Shown: piece by piece, positions 8,183 through 57,551 of the stretch
How the letters are laid out: every line of letters starts with the position of its first letter
How positions within the stretch are numbered: the first letter of the stretch is position 1
NCBI GenBank assembly: GCA_051362555.1
Contig: CM120645.1
Location: forward strand, 1,736,001 to 1,800,000
Reading direction: 5' to 3'
DNA length: 64,000 nt
From: Lingula anatina
Taxonomy: Eukaryota > Animalia > Brachiopoda
Made by a program: the position numbers and the translations under genes
Notes under the pieces: model-generated
What the model saw: the letters and a program-made list of their open reading frames with translations, nothing else
Told to the model about the DNA's origin: nothing
The model's database searches: none

Positions 8183-8188
<6 letters not shown>

Positions 8189-10391: not shown

Positions 10392-10469
<78 letters not shown>

Positions 10470-11119: not shown

Positions 11120-12868
11120 TTATTTCATGGGCACAGCTGAAACCCGGAAAACTAGCTGTATTAAAAATGAAATAAAATACTTTGATGCCTTTCTCAGCGT
11201 TTATATGCAAATATTAAATAAGTACTATGTACTATTTGTCGTTAAGCGTTTATTGGTCCAACTTGACAATGATCGCTATCTGAAACAGAAGAGTAAATTA
11301 CATAAGTCTGCATAAATAATAATCCTATAAATACACGTTTCTATAGTAGACCTATAACCTGTTTAGAGGAAGGGTATGCATAAAAAAAGAGTGTAGCACA
11401 CTGAATATTTTGGTATTTTTACAAATTAATAATATCTGTTGAAGTCTACCTGGACACCTGAAGTAAGTAACTCTAACACAAGTGAACAATAACTAACCAC
11501 TGCACTACCTGTGCAGCTCTTTATTATAGTACCAAATATGCAAATGACCCAATGCTACAAGTCCAATAAATATGATTGGCTAGTTTACCACTGCATAACC
11601 ACTGCAATGCAACACTTTACCATAATTGTTTGAGATGTTATCACATAGCCATTATGTAAGTTCTACAAGAGGAAACCATTGCCTTCTTGCATGTTCAATG
11701 CCCAAATTCTATTGCGACAGTGATTTATATTGATGTAGGCGTGTGCATCGGTCCGTCCAAAGTCGCTATTTATTTCTCCATACTTGATTCACTAATTATT
11801 ATCTTTAATTGTATACATTCCTGATATTACTTAACTTTATTTTTATAATCCGATTTAACAAGGAGTTATTTTATTCTTTGTGAGCATACCTTTTAACCAC
11901 GGGATTCTTGTTCCATTTTATTTTGTTACATAAGCCAATCATGTTATCAAAATGCATTGTGGTGTACTTGGTAAAAAAATGACAAAGTTCAATGATTTTT
12001 TTTAAAATATGAACGAAAAATGCTTTTTAAAGGCCTGTATTACTATCTCTTAGTTTTGGCAGAGATATCAAATATCAGTTTGGAAATGGTTATAGGTATT
12101 AGGGAATTCTTGCTCGCTTTTCTCTTTGAATAATGCAAAAATTATAAACAAGGAAATTCTTATTTTTCATGTTGATATTTTATTCCTGGTGGCATATTGA
12201 GTTTTTTTAATAGCCTATCACAGTATATGAAGAGATACATGTATTATCTTCATTTCAACTTTCTGTTCTGTCATTTGGCTTTGTCAATAAGCTAACAACA
12301 TTTTGGAAGAAAATTGTAGTCTTTAGCAACTCAGCTAGGCTCGGGCAGATCATCCCTCCAGTTCAGATTTTGGTATTGCTCATATCTTTAACAAGAGATA
12401 GAGACCTTGAAGGTCCCTCCGATACCAAACCCGTACACACCTATTGCATACGTCCCATTGGATAAGTCTCCTTGAGGGATCTGGAGCAGAGAGGTAAAGC
12501 CAGAACAGCCATCAAAGTCGTCATTGGAGTACGCACTGTTACCTTGGCGGATATTGCATGTCTGACTTCCACCGGATTCAATATTAGACATAGCATCACA
12601 GGAAAAAAGAGCCAGCTTCGTGTCGTAGTCGGCGGCATTGCATGTGGATATAATGATGTTGTTACTTCCTGAGTAACAGATGCTGTATCGCAACGGTGCC
12701 AGATTATTTGCGACATATTGATAGCTGTCGTTGAAGGTATAGGTTGTACCATCACACATGACTTGTTGAACGTCCGCTGTAAGTGTTAATATAATTTAAG
12801 TGTAAATATAATTTCGACTTTCACATTGGCCACACTATTTTACAATAATAATGATTATATATACCCGG

Positions 12869-12946
<78 letters not shown>
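10394..12946. repeat. (TA)n microsatellites
   Basis: Tracts at ~10394-10460, 11064-11118 and 12872-12946. Others at ~32940-33004, 33883-33935 and 41527-41590; (GA)n at ~9938-9971 and 32430-32467. Confidence 0.9.
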
Positions 12947-12950
<4 letters not shown>

Positions 12951-15900
12951 TTTCCGAAATTGGATCCCGTAAAAGTTTTTAAAAGTAAAATAAAAATAAA
13001 AAGATTATTAGTAATAATGATAATTAAAAATAAAAATAATTAAGTTTTATACAAGTACAACATTGGTCAAAAAGGTTGTCCCACCCCCACTTCCATATAC
13101 TTTTATTTACAAATGATCAGCTCACAGGTGTAAATTGTTATAACTAGTGCTTTTTATTCTAGATACCATGTCTAACATGAATAATGGTTAAAAAAATACA
13201 AAATAGTGGTCTGTTTAGGAAGAATGGGAAAATATCCCACAAAACAGAATTATTACCCTTGTTGAAGGCTTGTCGCGCCATCTACAGGAGATAATTACAG
13301 TACGCGGTAGACGCACACGCTATTAGGCAGGTGACCTCTAACGAGCACATCCTAATGCTAATTATGTGTAAATTTGGTGACATTTGGTGGCGTCTTTTCA
13401 ATTAAATAGGCACTTCTTTACATCCGTAGAAATCACAGTGGAACATTGGATCTGAGGGGGTACTTGTTATAAATTTGACTTAATGGTATAAAATGTGCAT
13501 TTTACAACTCAATGAACTGTCTGTTATTTTAAAACAGTATGACATAGATTATGCCTGCATAACAGGGAGCTGGTGCAACTCATCCATCTCTGACAGCATA
13601 TAATACAGTGAGAAAAGACAGAGAGCAGAAGAGGGGCGGTGGATTGGTTTGTTACATCTAAGAATCAATACCTTTCAAGATATGGAATGAGCTAGTCTGC
13701 AACCTGGAATCACTATGGATAACTTTGAGACCAAACAGACTACCTCGGCGTGAATTCTCACACATCAGCCTTGGCGCAATTTACCACCCTCTAGGTGCAG
13801 ATAACAAGAGTATGACCCAACATATCATATCTTCCACTGACTTTATCCTCAGGGTCCACCCGTATTCAGCAGTCTTCCTTATTGGTGACTTTAACACACT
13901 CCCTGACAACCAATTTAAGAGAGCCTTCAACTTGAGACAGATTGTCAGGAAGGGTACAAGAAGAGAATCAATACTGGACAAAATCTTCACTAACATTGAC
14001 CAATATTACAAGGTGCCCGAAATACTACCGCCAATAGGACATCCGACCACAATGCAGTACTCTCCCTTCCTGCAAATCATAACCGCAATCCATGTGGTAA
14101 AGAGGAAAAGATCCGCTGTCGCTCCATGGGAAAAAATGAAAAAAATTCTTTTCGCTCATGAGCTCATGAAAGTGAATTGGACACCACTGTATAAAATGGA
14201 CACTTGTGCAAACCAGTACCAGTTCTTCGAAGAGACAATTAACAATCTCCTTGACACCTATCTTCCAATGAGAGTCATCAGCAGACACACAACGGACAAA
14301 CCCTGGGTAACATCTGATTTCAAGGACCTCATCAAACGGCGTCAGAGAGCCCTCAGCGAAGGAAATACTAGCCTTTCACATGCACTCAGGAACAAAATCA
14401 AAAGGACAAATAAACAACTTAAGTCAAAATACTATAAAAATAAAATAGAATCATTGAAACAGTCCAACTCTTCCCTATGGTGGAAAAAATCAAAAGAATT
14501 ATCTGGGATGCAAAACAATGTCACTTTACTCCAACTGCTGGCAGATAGCACATCTTCAGGCAATCTTCCAGTTCTGGCAAACAAAATCAATACCTTTTTT
14601 CATAGTGTCAGCCAAGACCTGTCACCTTTACAACCTGACGGAAATGCCCAGCAGAGTTGTATAGTACCTGACAAATTTGTTATCTGCACAGCGGATGTAG
14701 AAAAATTACTATCCAAAGTAAAGCTGTCTTAAGCTAAAGGCCCAGACCAAATTCCAAATTGGGTTCTCAGAGACTTTGCAGACTACTTGTCAAAACCACT
14801 TTGTGCAATTTTCAATAGCTCAGTAAGGGATGGTTGCGTACCAAAAATTTGGAAATCTGCAGAGATAATACCCATTCCAAAAGTGAATCAGCCAAAGGTA
14901 ATAGAGTCAGATCTTAGACCTATATCACAAACACCAGTTCTAAGTAAAATTTTGGAGTCTTTTGTAACAAAGTGGGTTACAGATGGTCTGCAAATTGATA
15001 GAGCACAGTTTGGTGGCATTCAGAATAGTTCAACTACTCACGCCTTAGTTGAATTGACTCATAGATTACTAGAAGGACTTGAACCATCCCCCAAAACAAA
15101 GTCTTATGCTCAGGTGTTATTTTTAGATTTTGCTAAAGACTTCGACAGGATTGATCACCATATCTTAATGAAAAAATTAGAAATTCAAGGGATAGACCAA
15201 TTGGCTGACTGGGTCAAGCAAAACAAGATGAAACTTAATGTAAAGAAGACTAAGTCAATGGACATAAATTTTACCAAGAACTGTAATCTTACAATGCCAA
15301 CATTGGAAATAGATGGTGAACGTGTAGAAAAGGTCAAAAAGTTTAAGATACTTGGTGTTATTTTAACCCCAGACCTCAAGTGGGCTGAACACATCCGAAT
15401 CATGTATGCTAAGGCATGTTTAAAGCTCTTTTATCTCAGACAGCTAAAGAGGGCAAAACTGGACATACAAGATTTATTAACTATTTACCAGTCTGTAATA
15501 AGATCAGTTTTAGAATATGCATGTCCAGTATGGGGACCAGGTCTGACTGCTGAGCAATCTGAATGTCTAGAGTCAGTTCAAGAGAGAGCTTTAAGGATTA
15601 TTTGCCCTGGTCTCAGTTATGATGATGCCTTAAAAGTTTGTAACATTGACACCCTAGACAAACGTAGACATTTGCTGTATCAGAGGTTTTATACAAAATT
15701 AAAAAATTGTGAAAAGTTAGGACATTTATTGACTGAAAGAAACACCCGCCCTTTACGAAACACCAAATTCTTACAACCAAAAGTGAACGTTTTAAAAATT
15801 CCTTTATTAATTATTGCCTTTTTAACTTGTAGTAATTTATGGATGCCGTTTTAATTTGTAGTATTTTAAGAATAATTTATTGTTTTATAATTTAAAGTTT

Positions 15901-18900
15901 ATTGTCAATTTTCTTTTAAACATTCTTTGTACAACTTCAACCTTAGGGTTGCAATTTTATCAAATAAATTATTATTATTATTATTATTATTATTAAACAT
16001 ACAGAAAAGATTAATATAAATGAAGTACAGCTTCAGTTGGAAAACCACATATATATAATTTCATCTTGAGTTGGAAAACCAGCTCAATTCCATTATTTTT
16101 CAAGAAGAAAGGCATTTTTTTTTTTTTTTTTTTTTTTTTGCAAAAATGTTGGACTTTGAACTCCCACTGGCATGAAGCCTCATGGTAGTTACATATTCTT
16201 AGTGTCCACGTTAGATAAATAAAAAATTGGTGTTGACTTTGTTGTTAAGCATAATGTATTATTGCATCAAAACTGTCAAAAAAAAAAATTCTTTGCATCA
16301 TTGTGTGTTCATCTAACAGCTTTGCTGCCTTGTTGATTCTCTTTCTACACACTGTTATGTAGGTTAAAAAAGATGCCATACTTACGACACCGTCTTGTTA
16401 GTTCAGCTGAAAAAATTGATAAGAAGAAATATATTAGAAAAGCACATTAATGATATATATATACAAATAATCTATATATTGTACAACTTCTGCCACCACT
16501 TTTGCCGATAAATTTGAGAAATGAATCCTTAATGTCAAAACATACACCAGTTTCCCAACATATCAACAATTTTTTGTTCACTGCGTTTTTTAATGATCCT
16601 ATAACGTGGATTGCAAGGTAATATCCATTACCACAATTATTTTCAATTTTAAAAACCACATCTTACATGCAGTTAGCTTGTAGTGCCTTTTTACACACTG
16701 GTATGTAGGTTATAGAAGATGCACTGTGCCTGAGATAATTTATAAAACTCCCTGGCTATCTATCATCTAAGACCTTAACTAATTTAAAAATCAGTAAAAC
16801 GAGGCAGCAAGCAGCCTTAAGTAAAACACAAAAAATAAACACATATGAAAGTTGGTCTACACTGAAGAAAAATTAGTATTAAATATTTTTGTGTTAAATG
16901 TAATATCATACTTACGACATTGTGCGATAGATTCAGCTGAAAACGTGAAAAGATGTATTTTGCAAAAGTACACGAAAATATTCATACAATCATGTGCATA
17001 TTCTGCCAACGTGAACAAAGATGTTAATATATATTATATATTGGTTTAGATATGAATTAATTGATATTATTCTCTCAATAGTAAAATATAGAACTCTATA
17101 GACTATCTCTATACAGCAACTAAAATTTCCCGTTTCTGCTTTTTTGTCTAGCCCATAAAACCAACTATTCTTACCAATTATTTTCTATTTCTGGCTATAG
17201 AAAGATAGCAGTAGGGAGGGCACGTTTGCAAATCAAATGTAATGTTTGATGTAATACTTACGACATGTCGGCATTTCTAGGGGAAAAAAGAAAGGCAATA
17301 TTAAACACAATGGGGCATCACTTGAATAATATAATCATTCAAACAATTATCATTTAAACATTGATTTTTCAGATACTTTAAAGTTTAGGTGATTCGATCA
17401 ATGAAGCCATATGATAAAAGACAAAATAGTGGAATTTGTTTAATGCTGAATTATCAAAAGAAAAAGAGGTGTTCGCGGAATTCAACTTTAACGGTTACAT
17501 ATGATTGGGTTTATTTCCTTATCCGCTATTAGCTACCGTGGAAATGAACATTGTCATTTTATGAGATAACGTAGTCACATCCAATATACATTGAGGTAAA
17601 TATGCTAGTTCCAGTTGGTGACGTAAAAGTAGTTATTTGGGAGAGAAAACTTTTATGTCCATTTCAAACAATATGTACTACAAACTGGTGTCAGGAAATT
17701 GGCGTAGGTTTAATCTCTACATAAAAAACAGCAACTCCCTTGATAATGTTGAAATCAGAACAACACAACAAAGAGTTCATAGCGTTTCCTTCAAATGGTT
17801 ACACATAATTTGAAAAGAAATGTATAAAAGACTAAGTTTCCTTCGAACTTAAAAACCAATAACTTGACTTCCACTTCCCCCTTTTCCTAATGCCAGTGAA
17901 TACTGCATCCTAACAGTTTAAATACGGTACTATCGAAATCAAACACCCTATTCCTGGATACAATATTGTTATAAGTTCAAGAGTTTACAAATAAGATCAC
18001 CTGCACAAAATATATACAAATTTAAATAAGAATTGAAAGATTTTAAAATATCAAAACTGAGCCCCCTGCTAGGGTATTAAAATGACAACCGTTAAATCAT
18101 AAAAAATTCCTTACTCTAAGTTGAATTGGTAAAAACAAACATAACATCAAATGGGTTTTTAAGCACAGTTTTTATGTCGAGTTTTTATTTATTCAAGGAC
18201 CAATATTTGAGAAGAAAAGTATAAAGTACAAACTTTTCATCGAACATCAGAACCAATATGTCGACTTCAAATCCCCCCTTTCCTAATGGTGGTAATGGTA
18301 CTGCACCCATGCAATAAAGTCTAACTGCCAGTTCTCACCTGGAACGCAATTTTGTGGATCTGGAACAGAAGAGTTGAACATGTATCCCTCTTCACACACA
18401 CAGACCAGAGGTTCTGGACAAGGTAAACTTTGACCTTCTTCGTTGGTAGTATTCTGGCAGTTTGACACAGTACTGTTATCCACTATCTCACAGCATCTGG
18501 TATTATTACCACACACAACTGGGGGCCTCACTTCAATTTATGAAACAAAAGACAAAACTTGTCAATACAGGGAAATGAATTTATATAGATTTCATTTTGA
18601 AACATTATGTCATGATCATTGCATTTCTGTGTGTGTCCTTCTAAGACGAGGTACAGTGTGCCATATAAAACATTGCCAAATTCCACCCACTTTGACAAGG
18701 ACGATGGTCATCCGACATTTTCCAACCAGTGTAAATTACAAAGCTACATGTCACCCTTACGTAAACCATGATTAAAATTTTTATTTCGATATTATGTTAT
18801 AAGATCTAAAGATTAATAATGAAATCATCTGCACAATATATACATGTTTACAAGTTTAAATAGGGTAGTATTGAACCAACAATCACAAATCAACTGAGAG

Positions 18901-18925
18901 TGCCTTACTCTTCCTTGAAAAGGTT

Positions 18926-18966
<41 letters not shown>

Positions 18967-21900
18967 ACTTTAACCAACAATGAGAGTTCTCACCTGGAAC
19001 GCAATTTTGTGGATCTGGATCAGAAGAGTTGAACATGAATCCCTCTTCACACGCACAGACCCGAGGTTCTGGACAAGGTAAACTTTGACCTTCTTCATTG
19101 GTAGTATTCTGACAGTTTGACACTGTACTGTTATCCACTACCTCACAGCATCTGGTATTATTACCACACACAACTGAGGGCCTCACTTCAATTTATGAAA
19201 CAGAAGACAAAACTTATCAACACAGGGAAATTATTTTATATAGATTCCAATTCAGAACATGATGCCAGGATTATTGTGCTTCGGTGTGCATCCTTCTACA
19301 GTGTGTAACATGAAAGACAGTGCGCCATACAAAACATTGCCAAATTCCAGTCAACGTGACAATTGACTGTGGGTATACGATACACGTTTTTCAACCACTG
19401 TAACTTTAAATGCTGCATAAGATCTTACGTTTAATAATGAAGTCATATGCACAATGTACACCAATACTTTGGGGGAGATAAATGACTGTGGAATGATATG
19501 CTCCTGCTATCAGTTTATTAACAAGTTTACAAGTTTAAATATGGTTGTATCGAAATCACAAACACAAAGCATAAAGAGTGCCTTACTCTTCCTTGAAGAG
19601 GTAAAAAAGCAGAACTTAAACCAGCAAAGACAGTGGGCCAAAAAAACATGGCCAAATTCCATCCAATGTGACGTATGACGATGCGGGTACACGATACCTA
19701 CTTTTAAGTTATATGTCACGTGTACGCAAACCATGATTAAAAATATTATTTCTACATATACTGTTATGAGATCTAAAGTTTAACGATGAAGTCATCTGCA
19801 CAATATATACATGTTTAATTACAAATTTAAATATGGGAGTATCAAAATCACAAACACAAATCATATAGAGTGCCTTACTCTTCCTTGAAAAGGTAAAAAG
19901 CAAAACTTTAACCAATAATAACAGAACTCACCTGGAACGCAATTTTGTGGATCTGGATCAAAAGTGTTGAACATGAATCCCTCATCACACACACATACCA
20001 GAGGTTCTGGACAAGGTAAACTTTGACCTTCTTCATTGGTAGTATTCTGACAGTTTGACACTGTACTGTTATCCACTACCTCACAGCATCTGGTATTATT
20101 ACCACACACAACTGAGGGCCTCACTTCAATTTATGAAACAGAAGACAAAACTTATCAACACAGGGAAATTATTTTATATAGATTCCAATTCAGAACATGA
20201 TGCCAGGATTATTGTGCTTCGGTGTGCATCCTTCTACAGTGTGTAACATGAAAGACAGTGCGCCATACAAAACATTGCCAAATTCCAGTCAACGTGACAA
20301 TTGACTGTGGGTATACGATACACGTTTTTCAACCACTGTAACTTTAAATGCTGCATAAGATCTTACGTTTAATAATGAAGTCATATGCACAATGTACACC
20401 AATACTTTGGGGGAGATAAATGACTGTGGAATGATATGCTCCTGCTATCAGTTTATTAACAAGTTTACAAGTTTAAATATGGTTGTATCGAAATCACAAA
20501 CACAAAGCATAAAGAGTGCCTTACTCTTCCTTGAAGAGGTAAAAAAGCAGAACTTAAACCAGCAAAGACAGTGGGCCAAAAAAACATGGCCAAATTCCAT
20601 CCAATGTGACGTATGACGATGCGGGTACACGATACCTACTTTTAAGTTATATGTCACGTGTACGCAAACCATGATTAAAAATATTATTTCTACATATACT
20701 GTTATGAGATCTAAAGTTTAACGATGAAGTCATCTGCACAATATATACATGTTTAATTACAAATTTAAATATGGGAGTATCAAAATCACAAACACAAATC
20801 ATATAGAGTGCCTTACTCTTCCTTGAAAAGGTAAAAAGCAAAACTTTAACCAATAATAACAGAACTCACCTGGAACGCAATTTTGTGGATCTGGATCAGA
20901 AGTGTTGAACATGAATCCCTCATCACACACACATACCAGAGGTTCTGGACAAGGTAAACTTTGACCTTCTTCATTGGTAGTATTCTGACAGTTTGACACT
21001 GTACTGTTATCCACTACCTCACAGCATCTGGTATTATTACCACACACAACTGGGGGCCTCACTTCAATTTATGAAACAGAAGACAAAACTTGTCAACACA
21101 AGGAAATGAATTTATATAGATTTCATTTTGGAACATTATGTCTTGATCATTGCATTTCTGTGTGTATCCTTTTACAACATTATTTTAGAACTCATTAATT
21201 TTAGGACATTATGGCAAATTCATGCTTATATGTTTATACTTCTAACATGGGATACAGTGTGCCATAAACAGCATTGCCAAATTCCACCCACTGCGATGTG
21301 TGATGACTGGTATACAACACTTGTTTTCCAAGCAGTGTAAATTACAATACTACATGTCACGTATATAAAACCATGATTAAAATATTATTTTTCCATATAT
21401 TGTTATAAGATCTAAAGTTTAATAGTGAAGTCATATGCACAATATACACGTGTACAAGTTTAAGTACGATAGTATTAAAATCATGAACACAAATCACTGA
21501 GAGTGCTTTACTCTTCCTTGAAAAGGAAAAAAGCAGAACTTTAACCAGCAATGAGAGTTCTCACCTGGAACGCAATTTTGTGGATCTGGATCAGAAGAGT
21601 TGAACATGTATCCCTCATCACACACACAGACCAGAGGTTCTGGACAAGGTAAACTTTGACCTTCTTCGTTGGTAGTATTCTGGCAGTTTGACACTGTACT
21701 GTTATCCACTATCTCACAGCATCTGGTATTATTACCACACACAACTGGGGGCCTCACTTCAATTTAAGAAACAGAAGTGAAGACTTGTCAACACAAGGAA
21801 ATGAATTTATATAGATTTCATTTTGGAACATTATGTCTTGACCATTGCATTTCTGTGTGTATTCTTCTAACATGGGGTACAGTGTGTCATATAAAACACT

Positions 21901-24900
21901 GCCAAATTATACCCACTTTGACAAGGGCGATGGTCATCTGACATTTTCCAACTAGTGTAAATTACAAAGCTACATGTCACGCGTACTCAAACAATGATTA
22001 AAATTTTACTTCTACACATTGTTATAAGATCTTTAGATTAATAATGAAGTCATCTGCACAATACATACATGTTGACAACTTTAAATATGGTAGTATTGAA
22101 ATCACAAACACAAAGCATAAAGAGTGTCTCACTCTTATTGAAAAGGTAAAAAAGCAGAACTTTAACCAGCAATGAAAGTTCTCACCTGGCACGCAATTTT
22201 GTGGATCTGAATCAGAAGAGTTGAACATGTATCCCTCTTCACACACACAGACCAGAGGTTCTGGACAAGGTAAACTTTGACCTTCTTCATTGGTAGTATT
22301 CTGGCAGTTTGACACTGTACTGTTATCCACTACCTCACAGCATCTGGTATTATTGCCACACATAACTGGGGGCCTCACTTCAATTTATGAAACAAAAGAC
22401 AAAGCTCATGAATAATTTTAGAGCATTATTTTAGAACTCATTAATTTTAGGACACTGTGGCAAATTCATGCTTATACGCTCGTATGTTTATACTTCTAAC
22501 ATGGGATACAGTGTGCCATAAACAGCATGCCAAATTCCACGCACTGCAATGTGTGACGACTGGTATACAACACCTGTTTTCCAAGCAGTGTAAATGACAA
22601 AGCTACATGTCACACACACACACATATATATATATATATGTCAAAGGCCCGGATCAAATCTAGTCCCATGCATAAAGAGCCCAGACTCCATGTTTATTAC
22701 ACCCTGGCTGGGCCCATTATTTTTGGTGTCTTTGCATTGTTAACAGCATAATGGGCAAGTTAAATGACCAAGTTAATTGACCAAATTAATTGGCCAAGCT
22801 GCCAGTTTGTTTGTATGGCATGTGCAGTTGTCTTAGATCAAGGCACAAATGAAGCCCACCTTTAATTTAACATTTCTTTAGTGTTTAGCTTTTTATGCAT
22901 TCCAACCACTGCGGCAAGTGACACCCATCTTTCAAACAGTGTAAATTACAATGCTACATGTCACTTATTTACCAGCCATGATTAAAAATATTATTTCTCC
23001 AAATTTTGCTAGAAGATTTAATATTGAAGTCATCTTCACAAAATATACATTTTATAAGTTTAAATATGGTAGTATAGATATAACAAACACAAATCGTATA
23101 GAGTGCCTTACTCTTCCTTGAAAAGGTAAAAACATGCAGTCCTTTAACCAACAATGAGAGTTCTCACCTGGAACGCAATTTTGTGGATTAGGATCAGAAG
23201 AGTTGAACAGGTATCCCTCTTCACACACACAGGCCAGAGGTTCTGGACAAGGTAAACTTTGACCTTCTTCATTGGTAGTATTCTGACAATTTGACACTGT
23301 ATTATTATCCACTACCTCACAGCATCTGGTATTATTACCACACACAACTGGGGGCTTCACTTCAATTTATGAAACAGAAGTCAAGACACGTGAACACAGG
23401 GAAATTAATTTAGAACATTATTTTAGAACTCATAAAATTTAGATCACTGTGCCAAATTTATTGTGTTCGTGGGTTTATACTTTTAACATGAGATACAGTG
23501 TACCATACACAACATTGCCTAATTTCACCCACTGTGAAGTGTGACGATGGGTATGCGATATCCATTTTGAAACCAGTGAAAATTACTAAGCTACATACCA
23601 CAAACGTAATCCCATATACGATTACAAACATTATTCCTAGATACACTGTTATAAGATCAAGAGTTTAAAAACAAGATCACATGCACAAAATACATACAAA
23701 TTTCAACAAAAATTGAAAGATTTTAAAAGAACAACACTGAGCCCCTGACGAGGGTATTAAAACCACAAGGGTAAAATCATAAAGAATTCCTTACTCTAAG
23801 TTGAATTGGTAAAAACAAACATGACATCAAATGGGTTTTTAAGCACACTTTTTATGTCGAATTATAATTTATTCAAGGAAGGACCAATATTTGAAAAGAA
23901 AAGAAATGCATAGTAACTTTTTATCAAAACCAATATCTCGACTTCAACCTCCCCCCCCCCCCCCCATCCTTTCCTAATGGTGGTAGTGGTACCGCACCCA
24001 TGCAATAAAATCTATAACTGCCTGTTCTCACCTGGAACGCAATTTTGTGGATCTGGAACAGAAGAGTTGAACATGTATCCCTTTTCACACACACAGACCC
24101 GAGGTTCTAGGCAAGGTAAACTTTGACCTTCTTCATTGGTAGTATTCTGACAGTTCGACACTGTACTGTTATCCACTACCTCACAGCATCTGGTATTATT
24201 ACCACACACAACTGGGGGCCTCACTTCTATTTATGAAACAGAAGACAAAACTTGTCAACACAGGGAAATGAATTTATATAGATTTCATTTTGAAACATTA
24301 TGTCATGATCATTGCATTTCTGTGTGTGTGCTTCTAAGACGAGGTACAGTGTGACATATAAAACATTGCCAAAGTCCACCCACTTTGACAAGGACGATGG
24401 TCATCCAACATTTTTCCAACCAGTGTAAATTACAAAGCTACATGCCACCCTTACGTAAACCATGATTAAAATTTTTATTTCGACATTCTGTTATAAGATC
24501 TAAAGATTAATAATGAAATCATCTGCACAACATATACATGTTTACAAGTTTAAATAGGGTAGTATCGAACCAACAAAAACAAATCATTGAGAGTGCCTTA
24601 CTCTTCCTTGAAAAGGTTAAAAAAAAAAAAAAACACAGGACTTTAACCAACAATGGGAGTTCTCACCTGGAACGCAATTTTGTGGATCTGGATCAGAAGA
24701 GTTGAACATGTATCCCTCTTCACACACACAGACCAGAGGTTCTGGACAAGGTAAACTTTGACCTTCTTCATTGGTAGTATTCTGGCAGTTTGACACTGTA
24801 CTGTTATCCACTACTTCACAGCATCTGGTATTATTACCACACACAACTGGGGGCCTCACTTCAATTTATGAAACAAAAGTCAAAACTCATGAATAATTTT

Positions 24901-27061
24901 ATGGCATTATTTTAGAACCCATTATATTTTAGAACATTGTGCCAAATTGATGTTTTTGTGTTAATGTTTCTCACATGAGATACAGTGTACCATACACAGC
25001 AATGCCAAATTTCACCCACTGCGACGTGTGACGACTGGTATAAAACACCTGTTTTCCAACCAGTCAAGTACTACATGCCACGTTTACGCAAACCATATAT
25101 AATTACAAATATTATTTTATTTTCTTGAAATCATGAAAACGAAATCTTAAAATAGTTCTTTGCTCTTCCAATATTCAAGCACATAACTTTTTATCAAACT
25201 TCAGAACCAGTACTGTGTATCTCGGCTTCAACCCCTTCTGTTTCCCCTAGTTACTTATACTAATTACCGTACCGCTGCAATAAAGTCTGTGAGTGCCATT
25301 TCTCACCTGGAACGCATCTTTTGGAACCTGGATCAGAGGTGTTCAACCTGTATCCCTCATTACACACACAGGACCATTTATGCGGGCAAGGTAAACTTTT
25401 TTCAATGATATTATTCTTGCAGTAGATCGAGTGTCTTCTAACCCTACAGCACTTGGAGTTCTCCCCACACACGGGTCTTGGCGAATGTCTTTTACACCCC
25501 GTGCCTCGGCTACCGCACTCCTGGCAGCGTATACGTGAGAAGGCGAGGTGCGATGGCTTAGCGTGCCGGCCGCCGTGTTTGCGTTGATGCCCAGGACATG
25601 CTCGGGTTATGCAGAAACGACTGTGCCTTGTACGCCCTAAATGTAAATTCAAGATTTTACGAAAAGTATAACAACTTACACCTATATCATCTTTTTGTCT
25701 AATTTGATGAAAAGCCTGCATTGAACAAAAACGTATTTAAATTATTACAAGGTATAAAAAGCATGCCATAATGTCCAAATTCACTTGTAAGTAAAATTAA
25801 CGTTACCATTTTATCGTAAATGAACATGACTATTTTACTGAATCGTGCTCTTTGGTGGATTGGTCTTTATCTTGGCACGATTTTTAAGGCTGATTTCTCA
25901 TAATTGATATCGCTTGACGCCATTGCATTGAGATATGCATCGTACCATCATGCAAGCCAACCCACGGCTCTTCTTTCATGTACGGTCTGCCACATTTGAT
26001 CTGTAGATCAGTACATGTAGATCCTGTGATCTCCAATTCTGAATACGTCCTTTGTTGAATGAAGCTATTGTTCTGCACCCTGAGCTTCAGAGATAACTTG
26101 ACACTAACCTCTTCACTATAGCCTATCTTCATCGTGTCAAGTTACCTTTGACCACATTCGATTGCCCCCGCCGCCCGCCAATCAAATTTAAAGCCCGCAC
26201 TCAATGACTCATTGAACGATCTAGCCAATGAACGCGAACGAGTCAAAGCGCGCTTTGTTCAAATCCGGACCAATCAAAGATAAGGCTGAATATCAGGGAC
26301 TTGCCGTAACCTGTGAGCAGCACGCAAAATACATCAGCCCTCAGTAGATAATGATGCAGGGCCTCAAACTGCTCTGGTTTCAATTCCGATATACTCATAT
26401 TTTGCAAAGAATCAACAGATAACTTAACACATTATTTTACGTAGTCACTCGTAGGAGACGCCATGCTTTCTCCGTGTACGGTTATGCACTCGGAACTACT
26501 CGGATGTCTCCGCACTAGACAATAACTTTCTTGTTAGTATGGAGCTTGCGGAATCAGCCGAGGATTACCGCTTGACGGTCAACCAATCAGCGTTTTCACC
26601 AAACTTTGGTGAAAAATTTTGAAACTTGGATTCGATTGGCTTATATAAACTAGGTCAAACTATTTTCGTCAGAGGTAACTTGACACAATGAAGATAGGCT
26701 ATTGTGAAGAGGTTAGTGTCAAGTTATCTCTGAAGCTCAGGGTGTTGTTCTGTCGTGTAATGCATTTTTTGTGAACGTGAAAGTAACAAAACTAAGCAAA
26801 ATGTTTGGCTAACTGGAACACCGTTCAAAACGAAAGACGGTCCGAGAGAAGTGAGATACTTTATAGCATAATGCTGATGAAACAGGGATCGATCAAATAA
26901 AGTCCGAGTCATGGTAATTTAAAAACAAACAGCATCTATCTTTAAAATACTTAATGGTGAATTATAAAAGTCATAATTTAGCACTTACGAATATTGGCGA
27001 CCGCATACAGTGCAACCAAAACCAAAATCAGACAAAGGAGCATTGTCCTGTACATCTTCAT
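12388..27061 (-). CDS. Secreted Cys-rich repeat protein with PPC-like C-terminal domain, copy 2 (complete model, ~820-860 aa)
   Basis: Signal exon 27061-26989. Basic exon 25636-25307. Nine repeat exons: 24858-24667, 24223-24032, 23359-23168, 22377-22186, 21756-21565, 21061-20870, 20123-19932, 19185-18994, 18530-18339 (each 12 nt shorter if the internal YAG acceptor is used). Micro-exons 17276-17262, 16936-16916, 16406-16386. Terminal exon 12776-12388. All introns are GT-AG, phase 1, and the frame is open to TAA. Confidence 0.8.
13480..15994 (+). mobile_element. Degenerate CR1/L2-group LINE (APE endonuclease + reverse transcriptase) in the last intron of copy 2
   Basis: Endonuclease motifs (GGGL, IYHP, IGDFN, LDKIFTN) and RT motifs (GPDQIP, DLRPIS, FLDFAKDFD, KILGV, RSVLEYACPVW). 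Contains stops and frameshifts, and the PQG/YADD segment is deleted. Ends in AATAAA plus an (ATT)n tail. Absent from unit 3; the 5' boundary is approximate. Confidence 0.9.
19050..21050. repeat. Almost perfect 938-bp tandem duplication within the repeat-exon array
   Basis: Identical ORFs recur with a 938-bp offset (19117/20055, 19454/20392, 19709/20647). Boundaries are approximate. Confidence 0.85.
26076..26744. mobile_element. Non-autonomous DNA transposon with ~75-bp TIRs and 8-bp TSD (hAT- or P-type)
   Basis: TIR CACCCTGAGCTTCAGAGATAACTTGACACTAACC... and its reverse complement. TSD TTGTTCTG at 26068-26075 and 26745-26752. The site is empty in unit 1 (~3612-3619). Confidence 0.9.
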
Positions 27062-27825: not shown

Positions 27826-28220
27826 GCCAGGTTTTACTCATGGCATGTAATGCTCGATTAAGAACATATGGCGACCTAGTCCTTCAAGTCTATGGACCAA
27901 ATGAATGGAACAATCTCCTAATATTCTTAAGAACTATTCTTAAGAGTTTGTGGACAATTTTAAAAAAGAATTAAAAACTTTTATTTTCAAAAAGTTATAT
28001 AACTTATTTGACTGGCTGTTATCTTTTATATTGTACTATCCATTTTAATATCTTAAAATCTTAACTGTCCATATGTTTATTTTCATTGTACTATACATTT
28101 TAATCTCTTAGGCCTAATATCTTAACTACCTATTTATTTATTTATTGACTTTATTCATCTGTTCTGTTCATTTTACCCATGCAAAGTCTACTGAACATTT
28201 TGTTTGGATTTTAGACTATA

Positions 28221-28253
<33 letters not shown>
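27826..28253 (+). mobile_element. 3' fragment of an L2/CR1-like LINE
   Basis: Encodes GPNEWNNLP...FKKELKTFIF-like ORF2 end, then an AT-rich 3'UTR and an (AAT)n tail. Not present in units 1 or 3. Confidence 0.6.
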
Positions 28254-28288
<35 letters not shown>

Positions 28289-28733
28289 TTCCTTGTTCCT
28301 CCGGCACCCTTGCACATATAATAGACACAGATCTCACCATTTATCTTGAATTCCTAGAAATTTGACAGCGATGTGAAAGGGATCAAATAAACGGGATATG
28401 ACTGCTTGATCAAGCTGTAAATAATCCCCACCCATGCTTCTTGGGCTTATGAAAAGGGCATACATGTAACTGAATAAAAATAAAGCAAGGAAAGAAAATA
28501 AAATGTTCAATGAAAACTAGCTAAAGGTGTGTACAAATATCAGTCGATTAAACAAAAGAGGAGAGCACAGCCGTACACGTGTACGTGCCTCCCTGAACTT
28601 AAGAAGTACCCCCCCCCCCCCCCACACACACACACATACCAAAATAGACAAAATAAATAAAAGTTAACGGGCGAAGCGAGACAAAACCAAGATTTTATCC
28701 ATCTCCGTGAACAACAAAATGTCCCCCTCTCCG

Positions 28734-28766
<33 letters not shown>

Positions 28767-29460
28767 AAAAAAGATAAACAAAAGATTAGAACGTATAACT
28801 TCTCCAAAGGTTGTTGGAAAGATCGGGCGAAATGAATTTTCAAAACGGAATACCCTCTCACTGCTTTTATTTTTATCCTATTTCTTGAAAAATATCAATT
28901 AATTCAAAATTTGTCCAAGATCTTTTTTCATTCTTAAATATCAAATGATATTTTTTCAATAAGCAGTGCTGGAAAGCTAGGCCGTCCCAGACGTTATCAA
29001 GGCATCTTTTGATTAATTCCTGGCTTTTTTCCCTTGATCGACAGGGGAAGGAAGGAGTGGGGAGAACGCTCAAACAAAAGGTGCCCCTCTCAGATCTGAT
29101 CCCTTTTCAGAAGTTAAATTAAGCCTATCCGTTTAAATACCTATGGACTGATTAAGTGCAATTTGACGTCTAAACAACAGGCTAAGGTATTTTTATTCGC
29201 TTCCAACACCCTGAGTGCCACTGTAGGTAGATTAAAAGAGAATTCAAGTTACAGCATGCTGATGATACAGGAGTTAGATTCAAATGACCATCAAACTCAG
29301 GTCGCTACGGAAGACAACAATTCTGATTATATGGAGCAAGGACGTATATTGAATATATTCAATATGCATCCTTGTATGGAGCTAGGATATCAGTGAGCTT
29401 TGGAAAATCAAGATGACTTCCTTTAATTGCAGTTGATTAAATTACCTTCTCACCTTCCAG

Positions 29461-30213
29461 ACGCAGATTCTACGGCGTACCCTATGAGACAGAAGTTGGT
29501 GATTGTTGGGGATAGCGCCTGCGGTAAATCCTGCCTGCTCAACGTGTTTACACAGGACGACTTTACCCTCAGCTATATTCCCACCGTCTTTGAGAACTAC
29601 GTAACCGACATAGAAGTGGATGGAAAACAGGTGCGACTCTTTTGTAGTATTTTTTTTTTTAATTAAATTGAAGACTTGAGAGTTAAAATTGTCTGTTATA
29701 AAATATAGCGTTCATCCGTTCATTTGATTTAAGCTCTTCTCTCTCTCATATATTACTACTGTTTTTAATTAGAAATAATGTTTTTTATTTCAGATCGAGT
29801 TGACACTTTGGGATACTGCCGGCCAGGAAGATTACGACCGCTTACGGCCCTTATCTTATCCCGATACTGACGTCATACTAATGTGTTACTCTACAGACAG
29901 TCCCGACAGCCTGGCCAACATCGCCGAAAAACTGGTCCCGGAGATCAACCACTTTTGTCCCAATGTTCTTGTAGTTCTAGTGGCAAATAAAAAGGACTTG
30001 AGAAAAGATGAAGAGATCATTACTAAACTGGCAAAGCTGAACGAAAAGCCGGTGGATTACATGGCCGGGGAAGACACTGCGGCAAAAATTGGTGCTTTTT
30101 CTTTCCTTGAGTGTTCGCCGAAAACGCGAGAGGGCGTTAGGGACGTATTTGAGACTGCCACGAGAGCGACGTTATTGAAAAGGAAACGCCGTAAGATCCA
30201 TCGCAGATGTTAA
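29461..30213 (+). CDS. RhoX copy 2: divergent RhoA-like GTPase, CAAX-less (functional status uncertain)
   Basis: Exons 29461-29630 (ATG at 29484) and 29794-30213. P-loop GDSACGKS, G5 SPK, ends RKIHRRC*. The frame is open but several conserved residues are changed. Confidence 0.6.
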
Positions 30214-32153: not shown

Positions 32154-32426
32154 ATGGGATTGTGGTCGTGTCTATACAACGGTGAGGAGTAACTCTCGTT
32201 TTCATTTTTTGATATCATTTTACTATTACCTTTAAAAATAGATATCTAAATACAAAGTAACATTTTTAAATGATTATTACAGATCAGTTTAATCGTTGTT
32301 TCCGCGTTGAACACTATTTTTATTGATTTAATACTGTTCTTGTGTTATCTGAGGGCAGTATAAAAGATGGGGAAATGAGTTAGCGAGGATACGAGAGGAA
32401 TTATAGATTATTTGTGATAATATTTG

Positions 32427-32469
<43 letters not shown>

Positions 32470-32935
32470 AAATGTTATAATACGGCAAGTGAAATACATT
32501 TTCATTTTCAGATAGGTCTTCTAAAGCTCACCAGCCACGCAAAACAATAATCATTCTTGGAGACGAGGGTTGTGGAAAATCTTGTCTAGTCAGCGTTTTC
32601 ACAAAGGACGATTTCGCCATAAACCGTCTTCCTGTCCCTTCCACGAGTAATATTTCATACATAGAAATTGATGGCAAAATGGTGATTATTTTTTCATATG
32701 GACAAACGGCAGTTTAAATGTTGCGCTGCATATCATTTTAACCCATGTTCTCATTATCAACAATATCAAAAAATCTTACATATATATATTTAGTTTGTTC
32801 CACACTTGAATAATAAAGAAAAACGTCTGTTTTAAAATTGATGCAGGACCCGCATGATAAAAGCGAGAAAATTTCAAAATTTTACATTCAATCTCTGTGT
32901 TAATCCCCCCCCCTCACACGAAACCCTGGAACCAT

Positions 32936-33007
<72 letters not shown>

Positions 33008-33579
33008 TTTTCTAGAGTGAATATCGAGAAAATAAATTTTGAGTGTGGTATTTATATCTTTAGCTGTAATATCATATTTTTTAACTTTTAGTTTTACTTT
33101 TAGTACTTTTAAAACTTATTGCTTCTGTATCAGAAATGCTGATTTTGAAAACTTCCTTCCAGATTGAACTTATCCTCCGAGAACCAGCGGGGCTAGATGA
33201 CGTCACCAGGCTTAACTCCCTTTCAGGCAACAAAAAGGACGCTGTTTTACTGTGTTATTCAATTGACAATCCCTGCAGTTTTAGAAATGCCTCATACAAA
33301 TGGGCACCAGAGATCAACAAACGATGCCCGGATGTTCCCATTGTATTAGTTGGAAACAAAAAGGACTTACGAAATGACAAATATACTATTTGTGAACTAG
33401 GGACTCTACACGAAGAACCGATTGGTTGGCAAGCGGGACAGAAAATGGCCGAAAAGATAAATGCGTTTTCTTATATGGAATGTTCAGCAAAAACGCGGGA
33501 AGGAATTCGAGAGTTGTTTGAGACGGCAGCAAGAGCGGCGGCGTTGAAAAAGAAGTATCCAACTGTTGTTCGGAAATAA
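32154..33579 (+). CDS. RhoY copy 2: atypical Rho GTPase (204 aa) with N-terminal MGLWSC and no CAAX
   Basis: Exons 32154-32181, 32512-32681 and 33163-33579 join in frame. Motifs GDEGCGKS, EPAGL (for DTAGQ), NKKD, SAK. Ends KKKYPTVVRK*. Confidence 0.8.
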
Positions 33580-33880
33580 TAATAATAATTATTATTATTA
33601 TTATTACTTAGGAATAATCTAAGCACGTCAGCACGGCTGAAAGTGCATACATATCAATTTTACAAACTGCTACCGTATTGATAATTACAGTATATGAGGC
33701 TTCCAGAAGGACGTGTTGTCCTGTAATTAGCAATTAACCATATTTCTTAATAGATTCTTAAAAGTATATATTTTGTGAAGCAACATCTAACTTCGCATGC
33801 AGTATGCAAACATTAAGTTAAACTCCATAATGCAATTAGAAATAATTATTTTCTACGCAAAGACCCTTATATATGGGGAG

Positions 33881-33953
<73 letters not shown>

Positions 33954-34789
33954 TTTCATGGACACAGCTGAAACCCGGAAAACTAGCTGTATCAAAAACG
34001 AAATAAATACTTTGATGCTTATCTCAGCGTTTAAATGCAAATATACGTTTCTATAGTATAACCTGTTTAGATTAAGCTCATGCATAAAAACGAGGAAATG
34101 ATTTGCTTCTTGCATGTTCAATGCCCAGAATCTATTACGACAGTGAGTTATGTTGATGTAGGCGTGTGCGTTGGTCCATCCAAAGCCGCCGTTTATTTCT
34201 GCATACTTGATTCACTGATTATCATCAGTCTATCTTTAGTTGTATTCAGTGCTGATATTACTTAACTTTATTTTCAAAATCTGATTTAACAAGGAGCTAA
34301 TTTTTCTCTGTGGGCAAACCTTTAATCCACGTGATTTTGATTTCATTTTATTTTGTTACATAAGCCATTCATGTTATCAAAATGCTTTGTGGTGTACTTG
34401 GTAAAAAAATGCCCAACTTAAATGACTTTTTTAAAATATAAACTAAAAACGCTTATTTAAAGACCTTTATTCCTATCTCTATACGCTTTGGCAAAGATAT
34501 CAAATATCAATCAGTTTGGAAATGGTTATAGGTATTAGGGGATTCTTGCACGCTTTTTTCTTTGAATAATGCATAAATTACGGACAATGAAATATTTATT
34601 TTTCATGTTGATATTTCATTCGTGGCGGCCTTTCGAGATACATGGATAATCTTCATTTCAATTTTCTGTATTCCATCATTGGGCTTCGTCAATAAATTTA
34701 AATTATAGAAGAAAATTGTAGTCTTTAGAAACTCAGCTTGACTTGGGCAGATCATCCCTCTAGCTCAGTTTTTGGTATTGCACATATCT

Positions 34790-37700
34790 TTAACAAGAGA
34801 TAGATATCCTAAAGAAGCCATAGGAAGTGTACGCCCCGCACACACCTATTGCATACGTCCCAATGGGTAGGTCTCCTTGCGGGATCTGGAGCAGAGAGGT
34901 AAAGCCGCCACAAACGGGACTGTCGTCATTCCAGTGCATAAAGTGATATCCGCGGATGCCGCATATCTGAAGTCCACCGCGTTCAATAAATAACGTCGCA
35001 TCACAGGCAAAAAGAACCACCATCGTGTCGAAGGTGGCGGCATTGCATGTGGATATACTGATGTTGTTACACCCCGAGTAACTGATGCTGTATTGTAACG
35101 GTACCAGGTCGAAATCAACAAATCGAAAGCGGCTGCTGAAGGAGTAGGTTGTACCGTCACACCTGACTTGTCGAACGTCCGCTGTAAGTGTAAATATAAT
35201 TTTTAAACTAGCATTTGACTTTCACATTGGCCACAATATTTTGCAATAATAATGATAATTTAAGCAGCTACCACATATATATAATTTCCGAAACTGAACT
35301 CTAAAAGTTCTTAAAAGTAAAATAACAATACAAATAATTATAAATAATAATAATAATTAAAGATAAAAATAATTAAGTTTAATACTAGTATGTTAAAAGA
35401 TTAATCGTATAATATACAAAAAATACAGTAAGTAAAAAGTAGGGAAAGCATAAACTAAGCTGCGTACGTAACTTTAAGACCCCAAACGGCATGATTTTTA
35501 CATCGTTTTTATGTACAGACACACCGCGCCTGGTGTACAGGGACACATTGTGCACGGTGGAAAATTTCTAGACAAAACTGGATAACTTCCTTGCTAGTAT
35601 ACTATATATATAGACCAACCCACACTGGTGACCACCATAAGGTGGAAAAACTTAACAAGTAAAGAGAAAGTAAGTAAAACCCCTTTTACACTAGACGGCG
35701 TCCTTTCTGCGTCCCGTACGTACATGTAGTACGGCCCCGTTTGAGAGTAAAAAAAGTAATACTTTACGTGCCAACAACTTGCAGATCAATGAGCATTCAT
35801 TCTGCAACCACGGCGATGCCTGTTTCATGGTCGCACAAAGGACGCAGAAAGGACGCCGTCTAGTGTAAAGGGGGTGTATGTAAGAAAGTAAGCATTAAAT
35901 GATATTGTATCAAAGTTGAAGAAAACCATGTTTTGGGCACCGATGCTATAATGACCAACAAAGGAAGACTTTGTTACTTATGATTATCAAACATACAGAA
36001 AAGATTAATAGAACTGAAGTACAGCTTGAGTTGGAAAACCATATATTTATAATTTCATTATTTTTCTGGAAGAAATGCTTTTTTTTTTTGGCAAAAATGT
36101 TGGACTTAGAACTCCCACTGGCATGACGCCTTATGGTAGTTATATATTCTTAGTATCCACGTTAGATAAATTAAAAATTGTTGGTGACTATGCTTTGTTG
36201 TCAAGCATAATGTATTATTGCATCAAAACTGTCAAAATTTTTTTTTGCATTATTGTGTGTTCATCTGACAGTTTTGCTGCCTTATTGACTTCCCTTTCTA
36301 CACACTGGTATGTAGGTAAAAAAAAGATGCCATACTTACGACAATATCTTGGAATTATAGCTGAAAAAATTGATAAGAAGAAATATAGTAGATAAGTACA
36401 TTAATGATATACTGTATATACACACACTGGACAATAGGAGTGTCACCCCTACTGAACCAATACTTTGGGGGAGAGAAATGACTGTGGAATGATATGCTCC
36501 TGGTATCATTTTATTAACATCAAATTTCACAAAAAGACCAACAATACAATTCCATGGTACAGCGGTTTTATACTCATTAGTCGCATTATAAGTAGATCAG
36601 GCATTATAAACTTTGATTACTCTGTTTCAGGGGGTGAAGGGGGTGACACTTCTCTTGTCCAGTGTGTGTACAAGTAATCAGTATATTGTACAACTTCTGC
36701 CACCACTTCTGCCGATAAATTTATGTGAAGATATTAATTCTTAATGTCAAAACACACACCAGTTTCCCAACATACCAACAATTTTTTGTTCACTGCGTTT
36801 TTTAATTATCCTATAACGTGAATCGTAAGGTAATATTCATTACCACAATTATTTTCAATTTTAAAAAACATATCTTACATATCTTAAATATAGAAGTCTA
36901 TAGACTATTTCTATACAGCAAATTAAATTTCCCGCTCCACTGCTTTTTTGTCGAACTCATTAGATGAACAATGATAAAAACCAACTAGTTTTACCAATTA
37001 TTTTCTATTTCTGGCTATAGAAAGATAGAAGTTGAGAGGGCATGTTTGCAAATCAAATGTAATGTTTGATGTAATACTTACGACATGTCGGTATATCTAG
37101 GGGAAAAAAAAGGCAATATTAAACACAATGGAGTATCACTTGAATATATAATCATTCAAACAATTATCATTTAAACACTGACATTTTCGTCATTTCAGAT
37201 CCGGCGACAAATGTATGTTATCCTTTAAAATAGAGTTTAGTTGATTCCATCAATGACAAAATAGTGGAATTTAATGCTGAATTACCAAAAGAACTCAACG
37301 TTAACACAGATGCTCATAGATAACTATGTGAGGGAGTGAAGCGGTTAATTACGATTGGGTTTATTTACTCCCTCGATTATGTAGAAGTCGGAACAAAACA
37401 AAAAGGAGTCCATAAGGTTTCCTTCAAATGGTAACACAATTTGAAAAGAAAAGTATAAAGACTAAGTTTCCTTCTAACTTTAGAACTAATATCTCAACCT
37501 CAAACCCACTCCCCCTTTCGTAATGGTACTAATACACAATGCAGTACTGCACCAATGCAATGAAGCCTATCACTGCCAGTTCTCACCTAGAATGCAATTT
37601 TGTGGATCTGGATCAGAAGGGTTGAACACGTATCCCTCTTTACACACACAGACCCGAGGTTCTGGACAAGGTAAACTTTGACCTTCTTCATTGATAGTAT

Positions 37701-41513: not shown

Positions 41514-41593
<80 letters not shown>

Positions 41594-48559: not shown

Positions 48560-48916
<357 letters not shown>

Positions 48917-57104: not shown

Positions 57105-57551
<447 letters not shown>

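What the first reader, a model, noticed from the sequence alone, without database searches (positions are those of the whole stretch)
12388..35181. Terminal domain diverges far faster than its own UTR: signature of diversifying selection
Seen: the terminal exons at 12776-12388 and 35181-34790 differ at about 52 of ~129 residues (~60% identity, manual count) with no stops or frameshifts. The adjacent 3'UTR differs at ~8 of 85 nt, and RhoX, RhoY and exon 2 are >90% identical between units. Changes cluster in patches (NDSYQYVANN/SSRFRFVDFD; QGNSAYS/GYHFMHW; FGIG/AYTSY) around a fixed frame (STCNAA, NDD, GFTSLLQIPQGDL, GTYAIGV). Inference: hypervariable ligand-binding loops.
Basis: partly seen in the sequence, partly recalled or inferred. 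Interest (0 to 1): 0.8.

Follow-up and report, generated by a model that had tools for sequence, protein, structure and literature searches.

The report
Fast-evolving head of brachiopod secreted protein
In the lamp shell Lingula, neighbouring copies of an unstudied secreted-protein gene differ about twice as much at protein-changing positions of their bacterial-style end domain as in the DNA around it, most likely because selection has been reshaping a binding surface, predicted to recognise some changing outside target.

Summary
In detail: the two terminal exons differ at 51 of 128 aligned residues plus one extra codon, with no stops. Base for base the gap is about two-fold (92 of 389 vs 10 of 85 in the UTR). 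The window is Lingula anatina-like: unit 2's domain is identical to LOC112042606. Each unit holds an intact secreted gene (signal peptide, ten EGF-like repeats, a PPC-like beta-sandwich head) and two Rho genes. The excess is at protein-changing sites: 0-fold sites 59 of 233, 2+4-fold sites 14 of 106, flanks 105 of 799. A site model favours a class with dN/dS near 5 (p 0.001-0.005); whole-exon dN/dS (1.1-1.3) is not above 1. Change is lopsided: unit 3's lineage carries most of it (27:5). Unit 3 is transcribed, and a third variant exists. Changes are not confined to loops, and no ligand was tested. Verdict: likely positive selection after tandem duplication, a known process, in an undescribed family with a bacterial-type head.

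The parts
12388..12776 (-). Unit 2 terminal exon: 128-aa PPC-like beta-sandwich head; the slower copy
   Evidence: Identical to the C-terminus of XP_023933164.1 / LOC112042606; model pLDDT 91.3; 73% identical to off-locus paralog P0001
34790..35181 (-). Unit 3 terminal exon: 129-aa head; the fast copy
   Evidence: 39 of its 51 differing residues occur in none of six other paralogs; 60 of 122 laid RNA reads in run X11 are 99%+ alike, all from a minus-strand transcript; model pLDDT 88.6
12388..27061 (-). Unit 2 gene: 15 exons, 858 aa; signal peptide, His/Arg-rich stretch, ten Cys-rich EGF-like repeats, three microexons, head
   Evidence: Exon chain has no internal stop and all AG/GT ends; same layout as database model P0105; Pfam cEGF and atypical EGF hits on P0105. 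Full splicing not shown by reads
34790..45052 (-). Unit 3 gene: 14 exons, 847 aa, same layout, two microexons
   Evidence: No internal stop, all AG/GT ends; RNA depth over terminal exon, 3'UTR and both microexon bins in X11
1..3936 (-). Unit 1 gene, 5' part; its terminal exon lies left of the window
   Evidence: Self-alignment and translations
36340..36360 (-). Last microexon of unit 3 (21 nt), also strongly diverged from unit 2's (16386-16406)
   Evidence: 8 of 21 nt, 4 of 7 residues, in a block about 10% diverged; p 0.0005
16386..17276 (-). Three microexons of unit 2 (17276-17262, 16936-16916, 16406-16386); the middle one is missing in unit 3
   Evidence: all three are in the RefSeq model P0005
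11669..12387 (-). Unit 2 3'UTR and flank (pairs with 34092-34789): neutral yardstick, 12-14% diverged
6772..7544 (+). RhoX gene, duplicated at about 29439-30213
   Evidence: Pfam Ras E 1.7e-31; exon matches about 97%
10030..11010 (+). RhoY, degenerate Rho-like gene, duplicated at about 32500-33560; this copy has an in-frame TGA at 10936-10938
   Evidence: Pfam Ras E 1.6e-15; translations
13662..15854 (+). LINE-like retroelement in the last intron of unit 2 only
   Evidence: Two long ORFs that look like endonuclease and reverse transcriptase (recalled motifs, not scanned); no counterpart in unit 3

Best explanation
These are tandem copies of an intact, transcribed Lingula gene for a predicted secreted protein whose end domain differs at twice the flank rate at protein-changing sites, likely because positive selection, mainly on the lineage of unit 3, has been remodelling a predicted binding surface while the core frame is held fixed. 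Shown: intact frames; RNA from unit 3; excess at 0-fold sites; degenerate sites at flank level; lopsided rate; avoidance of family-conserved positions; a third variant in other runs. Inferred: the head folds as a PPC/collagen-binding-domain-type sandwich on a stalk of EGF-like repeats; gene conversion keeps the rest of the unit alike while selection blocks it at this exon, leaving a peak with shoulders; the target is itself variable. My best guess for the target is a microbial or parasite surface or enzyme, so an innate-defence role (about 40%). Gamete recognition (about 15%) and matrix adhesion (about 20%) are the rivals; the rest is unassigned.
For: 0-fold sites 59 of 233 vs near flanks 105 of 799 (p 2e-5) and vs 2+4-fold sites 14 of 106 (p 0.015); second positions 35 of 122 vs third 19 of 122 (p 0.02). 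Own GY94 site models on 122 unambiguous codons: M2a beats M1a, 2dL 13.1, p 0.0014, about half the sites at dN/dS near 5; with multi-base changes allowed 2dL 10.4, p 0.005; 0 of 62 null simulations reached the value. Flanks show no excess of adjacent changes (18 vs 18.2), the exon does (27 vs 17.3). Relative rate, unit 3-derived vs unit 2-derived: 27:5, 28:6, 16:4, 14:6, 11:1, 14:6. Only 3 of 37 positions invariant in five other paralogs changed, against 35 of 55 variable ones (p 8e-8). Unit 3 is transcribed. A third variant differs from unit 3 at 24 of 198 nt, by my hand count 17 of 66 codons and 19-21 nonsynonymous vs 3-5 synonymous changes; 11 of those 66 codons have three different residues across the three forms. 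Fold: Z about 10 to PliG, a collagenase PPC domain and the ColG collagen-binding domain.
Against: Whole-exon dN/dS is not significantly above 1 (1.14-1.33, p 0.32-0.64; bootstrap intervals include 1). 0-fold vs 4-fold alone is not significant (59 of 233 vs 7 of 44, p 0.25). The third-variant count is not significant by itself (p 0.12-0.54; pooled three-way 53:10, p 0.06-0.14). The site test rests on two sequences and my own code, not PAML. Codons 1-37 have 8 of 33 degenerate sites changed, above the flank level (p 0.11), which hints at an older tract. The protein tree does not join units 2 and 3; unit 3 sits with P0006/P0007 at 50% support. Two of six relative-rate tests are 14:6 (p 0.12), and the outgroups are not independent. 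The second exon also shows 10 nonsynonymous to 3 synonymous changes, so constraint may be loose gene-wide. No ligand, tissue or induction data.
Confidence: 0.68

Rival explanations
1. Unit 3's exon, or parts of it, came from an older paralog by recombination or gene conversion, so it is old rather than fast.
For: Divergence rises towards the exon on both sides. Codons 1-37 have 24% divergence at degenerate sites (8 of 33). The protein tree puts unit 3 next to P0006/P0007 at 50% support. Copies not in any database exist.
Against: Over the exon, degenerate sites (14 of 106) equal the flanks (105 of 799). In the patchiest part, codons 38-103, they are lowest (4 of 55) while 0-fold sites are 36 of 129 (p 0.0016, chosen after looking). 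Unit 3 is closer to unit 2 (60%) than to any of five other paralogs (39-55%). 39 of its 51 differing residues are in none of six other paralogs.
Confidence: 0.14
2. Unit 3 is a redundant copy under relaxed constraint, drifting towards a pseudogene.
For: Whole-exon dN/dS near 1. Rate asymmetry fits a freed copy. Unit 3 changed three positions fixed in the other paralogs, lost a microexon, and its last repeat uses a shifted acceptor. A neighbouring RhoY copy carries a stop.
Against: Drift cannot put 0-fold sites at twice the flank rate. Changes avoid conserved positions (3 of 37 vs 35 of 55). The 847-aa frame is intact; the chance of no stop in 60-92 neutral changes is 0.03-0.09. It is well represented in RNA run X11.
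Confidence: 0.12
3. Function rival: selection is real, but the head is a gamete-recognition module, like oyster bindin.
For: Secreted, variable within the species, RNA seen in 1 of 3 runs laid. Oyster bindin diversifies by positive selection around a lectin pocket (PMC5712786, passages).
Against: The F-type fucose motif is absent and the fold matches are PPC-type. Tissue is unknown.
Confidence: 0.15
4. Function rival: the head binds collagen or another matrix polymer in shell, mucus or burrow lining, and copies are specialising.
For: Closest solved folds include collagenase PPC domains, which bind triple-helical collagen (PMC6168687, abstract). Lingula shell proteins are rich in EGF domains (PMC4595640, passages).
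Against: None of six family accessions occurs in the supplementary workbook of a Lingula shell-proteome paper that lists about 2,070 RefSeq-type ids (I did not read what each sheet lists). A host matrix target seldom drives such fast change (general knowledge).
Confidence: 0.2

Closest known systems
[quoted passage not shown]
   Same: Predicted fold: Foldseek E 2e-4 to 5sv5; VIA Z 10.1, rmsd 2.8 over 98 residues. Atlas feature hits 0.94-0.96 to PPC/GBD clusters. The STC-x-DT ... NDD-x-C ... Y-x-I-x-V pattern is shared with microbial homologues.
   Different: No Pfam hit on the Lingula heads. A roughly 20-residue Cys-bounded insert (59-81) that the microbial rows lack or shorten. One copy at the end of an intron-containing animal gene, with no peptidase.
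PliG, bacterial inhibitor of g-type lysozyme
   Same: Tied best structural match: Z 10.1, rmsd 2.6 over 100 residues.
   Different: 15% identity; animal multidomain protein; inhibition not tested.
Positively selected invertebrate recognition proteins (oyster bindin F-lectin repeats; bivalve C1qDC tandem arrays)
   Same: Secreted beta-sandwich heads, variation within the species, selection on a subset of sites (PMC5712786, passages; C1qDC seen only in search listings).
   Different: Different fold family; no F-type motif; variation sits in one terminal head while the repeats are near-identical between units (90 of 3944 nt).
Local divergence peak in duplicates under gene conversion (Teshima-Innan signature)
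   Same: High divergence at one coding region with shoulders, low divergence farther off, as described in PMC2588116 (passages).
   Different: Conversion itself was not tested (no orthologous locus from a second species). Other local highs of about 0.2 occur near 7673-8300.

Membership tests
PPC domain (PF04151) | Pfam profile match at the curated cut-off | tested here: not met
   0 families at E up to 1 for both heads; no PPC hit on six other Lingula proteins. A microbial homologue, P0085, passes (29 bits vs 25.9).
PPC domain (PF04151) | Collagen-binding-domain-type beta-sandwich fold | tested here: met
   Model pLDDT 91.3; Z 10.1 to 5sv5 and 9.9 to 1nqj. Prediction, not a solved structure.
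PPC domain (PF04151) | Binds triple-helical collagen | not testable with these tools
   Known for collagenase PPCs (PMC6168687, abstract).
GBD_T9SS_assoc (PF23759) | Profile match | tested here: not met
   No hit on the heads; 26 of 97 non-Lingula hits carry the family somewhere.
F-type lectin | Fucose-binding motif HX24RXDX4(R/K) | tested here: not met
   Motif from PMC5712786. Unit 2's head has no His; unit 3's His79 and His82 have no Arg 25 residues on.
PliG lysozyme inhibitors | Fold | tested here: met
   Z 10.1, tied with PPC domains, so not discriminating.
PliG lysozyme inhibitors | Inhibits g-type lysozyme | not testable with these tools
Gene under positive selection | Whole-region dN/dS significantly above 1 | tested here: not met
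   1.14-1.33, p 0.32-0.64.
Gene under positive selection | A site class with dN/dS above 1 beats the nearly neutral model | tested here: met
   p 0.0014; p 0.005 with multi-base changes; 0 of 62 null simulations. Two sequences, own code.
Gene under positive selection | Selected sites share one face of the structure | tested here: inconclusive
   No coordinates are returned. From strand order only, loops at one end differ at 15 of 23 vs 3 of 16 at the other (p 0.008, grouping made after looking); the insert (12 of 23) and strand 2 (5 of 8) also vary.
Horizontally acquired gene or domain | Nested within a bacterial clade and absent from related animals | tested here: inconclusive
   Every named eukaryotic hit is L. 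anatina. Of 16 non-Lingula hits looked up, 5 bear an organism name, all bacterial. 27 of 97 carry a type IX secretion tail; 24 of 97 are BspA repeats, probably spurious. No rooted tree was built.

The most novel reading that the evidence does not exclude
Lingula took a PPC-like adhesion module from bacteria, fused it to an EGF-like stalk, and turned it into a copy-number-variable, positively selected family of non-self recognition proteins: a variable-receptor scaffold not described in animals.
Probability: 0.2. Interest if true: 0.75.

Novelty: new variant of a known kind. Interest (0 to 1): 0.45.

Why it matters
Fast change after tandem duplication is common, so the process is no surprise. 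What is new is the scaffold: an undescribed Lingula family whose head has its nearest relatives among bacterial secreted proteins, with the fast copy and a third variant absent from the protein searches made here. It gives a concrete candidate for variable recognition in brachiopods, and a clean case where a divergence peak, rate asymmetry and copy variation coincide at one exon.

Tried and rejected
No whole genome is held for this window, so unit 1's head and the DNA of off-locus paralogs were not seen and synonymous changes could not be polarised. Pfam found nothing on the heads; PDB sequence search found 0 matches at E up to 10. The run search listed no indexed RNA holder; three raw RNA runs were laid instead: X11 covered the exon, X14 gave none and X17 about 1-2 reads deep; tissues are unknown, so this is no evidence on function. 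False tandem of two haplotypes: rejected, as there are three units, with unit-specific insertions and 2-17% divergence against 1.6% reported heterozygosity (PMC4595640). Multi-base mutation artefact: rejected. Six codons at the gapped hairpin (116-121) were dropped; one search kept them with two gap placements and gave similar results. In one search my first exon chains had wrong boundaries and showed false stops; corrected. The wide structural search and a fold search of the unit 3 model were not obtained. The second atlas search gave unnamed clusters only. Literature: no paper held any of six identifiers; searches listed nothing on this family by title or abstract start; subscription papers are not covered. 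Supplements of PMC4595640 were not opened and may list the genes under other ids. Earlier findings of the scan: none. No complex prediction was sent, since no partner is claimed.
Full report
What the locus is. The window is a tandem array of three related units. Each has a minus-strand gene and, beside it, two plus-strand Rho-type genes. Unit 2's terminal domain is identical to the C-terminus of Lingula anatina XP_023933164.1, so the animal is L. anatina or very close. Units 2 and 3 give 858 and 847 residues over 15 and 14 exons, without internal stops and with AG/GT ends throughout. The layout is signal peptide, His/Arg-rich stretch, ten Cys-rich repeats with EGF-like Pfam hits, short Cys microexons, and one terminal domain in a single exon. 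Six more L. anatina paralogs are annotated elsewhere, all as uncharacterised. Unit 3's protein was found by none of three homologue searches or the representative search.

The observation. 51 of 128 aligned residues differ and unit 3 has one more codon. In DNA the exon differs at 92 of 389 positions, the first 85 nt of the UTR at 10, and the 3' flank at 66 of 519. Clustering into patches is modest (p 0.035-0.065).

Fast or old? On 122 unambiguous codons, 0-fold sites differ at 59 of 233, 2-fold at 7 of 62, 4-fold at 7 of 44, and the nearest flanks at 105 of 799. Degenerate sites thus sit at flank level and 0-fold sites at twice that (p 2e-5 vs flank; p 0.015 vs 2+4-fold; p 0.25 vs 4-fold alone). 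Whole-exon dN/dS is 1.07-1.36 by counting and 1.14-1.33 by likelihood, not different from 1. That average hides two classes: M2a, with about half the sites near 0 and half near 5, beats M1a (2dL 13.1, p 0.0014), also when multi-base changes are allowed (10.4, p 0.005); 0 of 62 null simulations reached it. This is my own code on two sequences. Against a clean story, codons 1-37 have 8 of 33 degenerate sites changed, while codons 38-103 have 4 of 55 with 36 of 129 at 0-fold sites. An older tract at the 5' end is not excluded.

The change is lopsided. Unit 2 is 73% identical to off-locus paralog P0001 but 60% to its neighbour. With each outgroup, unit 3 holds more derived residues: 27:5, 28:6, 16:4, 14:6, 11:1 and 14:6; four of six are significant. 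39 of unit 3's 51 differing residues occur in none of six other paralogs, so no known paralog is the donor. The protein tree does not join units 2 and 3 (50% support for another grouping). I read this as a long-branch effect, given the collinear flanks, but did not prove it.

Not a decaying copy. Only 3 of 37 positions invariant in five other paralogs changed, against 35 of 55 variable ones. In RNA run X11, 60 of 122 reads laid on the exon's middle are 99%+ alike to unit 3, and all come from the gene's strand. 35 of 37 reads on the first microexon carry the unit 3 letter. The last microexon is also fast: 8 of 21 nt.

A third form. DNA runs X2 and X5 and RNA run X11 hold a variant that differs from unit 3 at 24 (X2) or 22 (X5) positions over 34871-35068; X1 does not list it. 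By hand, from the codons, it changes 17 of 66 residues, with 19-21 nonsynonymous and 3-5 synonymous changes, depending on one codon's path. Eleven codons have three different residues across the three forms; codon 72 shows four when the X5 form is counted. The three differences seen between runs within one form are all residue changes. None of these counts is significant alone (p 0.06-0.54), but they show that change went on in both descendants of the fast lineage.

Divergence profile. Between units 2 and 3, divergence is about 1-4% in the middle of the repeat block and RhoY, 7-10% in the microexon introns, 12-17% next to the exon and 21-27% within it. This resembles the peak expected when selection resists gene conversion (PMC2588116, passages). 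It also means that Rho and the repeats are not fair yardsticks. Conversion was not tested directly, and stretches near 7673-8300 also reach about 0.2.

The domain. Both heads are predicted with confidence and nearly the same strand order (pLDDT 91.3 and 88.6), with the caveat that both folds used the same homologues. The unit 2 model matches PliG, a collagenase PPC domain and the ColG collagen-binding domain at Z about 10. By sequence the next relatives are repeats in microbial secreted proteins, at E 4e-15 and weaker; 27 of 97 carry a type IX secretion tail, and the 5 of 16 looked up that bear an organism name are bacterial. Pfam does not place the Lingula heads. Differences fall on strands and loops alike (23 of 69 vs 28 of 59, p 0.15). 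Inferred from strand order alone, four loops at one end differ at 15 of 23 positions against 3 of 16 at the other end (p 0.008, grouped after looking), and conserved Asp residues 51 and 85 and the Cys45/Cys90 pair lie at or beside those loops. This favours a variable binding end but does not show it.

How it most likely works. Shown: duplication, intact genes, expression, excess protein-changing divergence, asymmetry, a third variant. Inferred: a secreted stalk presents a PPC-like head; after duplication one lineage kept the older surface and the other was repeatedly remodelled by selection; conversion keeps the rest alike. The target is unknown. I favour a microbial or parasite ligand (about 40%), because fast change among tandem, copy-variable secreted genes is typical of defence genes (general knowledge). 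Matrix binding (about 20%) rests on PPC collagen binding (PMC6168687, abstract), but six family accessions are absent from a shell-proteome workbook that uses the same kind of id (PMC13425148, passages and supplement search). Gamete recognition (about 15%) rests on the bindin analogy (PMC5712786, passages); the F-type motif is absent.

Verdict. Real, and probably selection-driven (0.68). The process is well known. The family and its bacterial-type head were not found in the papers searched. New variant of a known kind; interest 0.45.

Noticed in passing
window 25715-25683, 44763-44731, 2356-2324 (minus): A 33-nt exon-like stretch after the signal-peptide exon is open in unit 1 but has an in-frame TAG in units 2 and 3. 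Database model P0105 skips it. It may be a dead or optional exon.
   Followed up: partly
window 10936-10938: This RhoY copy has TGA where the copy near 33484 has Ser; RhoY's GTPase motifs look degenerate.
   Followed up: partly
window 48704-57530: Further Rho exons near 48704, 50851, 54182 and 57118: canonical RhoA-like genes beside the duplicated, diverging RhoX/RhoY pair.
   Followed up: partly
window 34871-35068, runs X1, X2, X5, X11: The third variant has depth 90 against 113 (unit 3) and 91 (unit 2) in X2, 30 against 16 and 14 in X5, and is not listed in X1. Copy number seems to vary; it may be unit 1's head or a deep allele.
   Followed up: partly
window 35112: A variant lacking 3 nt in the first patch occurs in one X2 contig and in 9 of 60 X11 reads.
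   Followed up: no
unit 2 head, run X11: Loose-end consensus shows a unit 2-like form that differs from the window at codons 83 and 89, both residue changes (read by hand).
   Followed up: partly
window 25636-25470 and copies: A His/Arg-rich cationic stretch follows the signal peptide; off-locus paralogs P0002 and P0006-P0008 lack it. It could be antimicrobial-like or metal-binding; untested.
   Followed up: no
window 22400-24400 vs unit 3: The repeat block is only about 1% diverged between units in its middle, which suggests recent conversion or unequal crossing-over.
   Followed up: partly
window 2425-3320: A retroelement-like fragment in a unit 1 intron only.
   Followed up: no
window 35660-35930 and 36404-36700: Short high-copy repeats, likely small mobile elements, in unit 3's introns; very high summed contig depth.
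   Followed up: no
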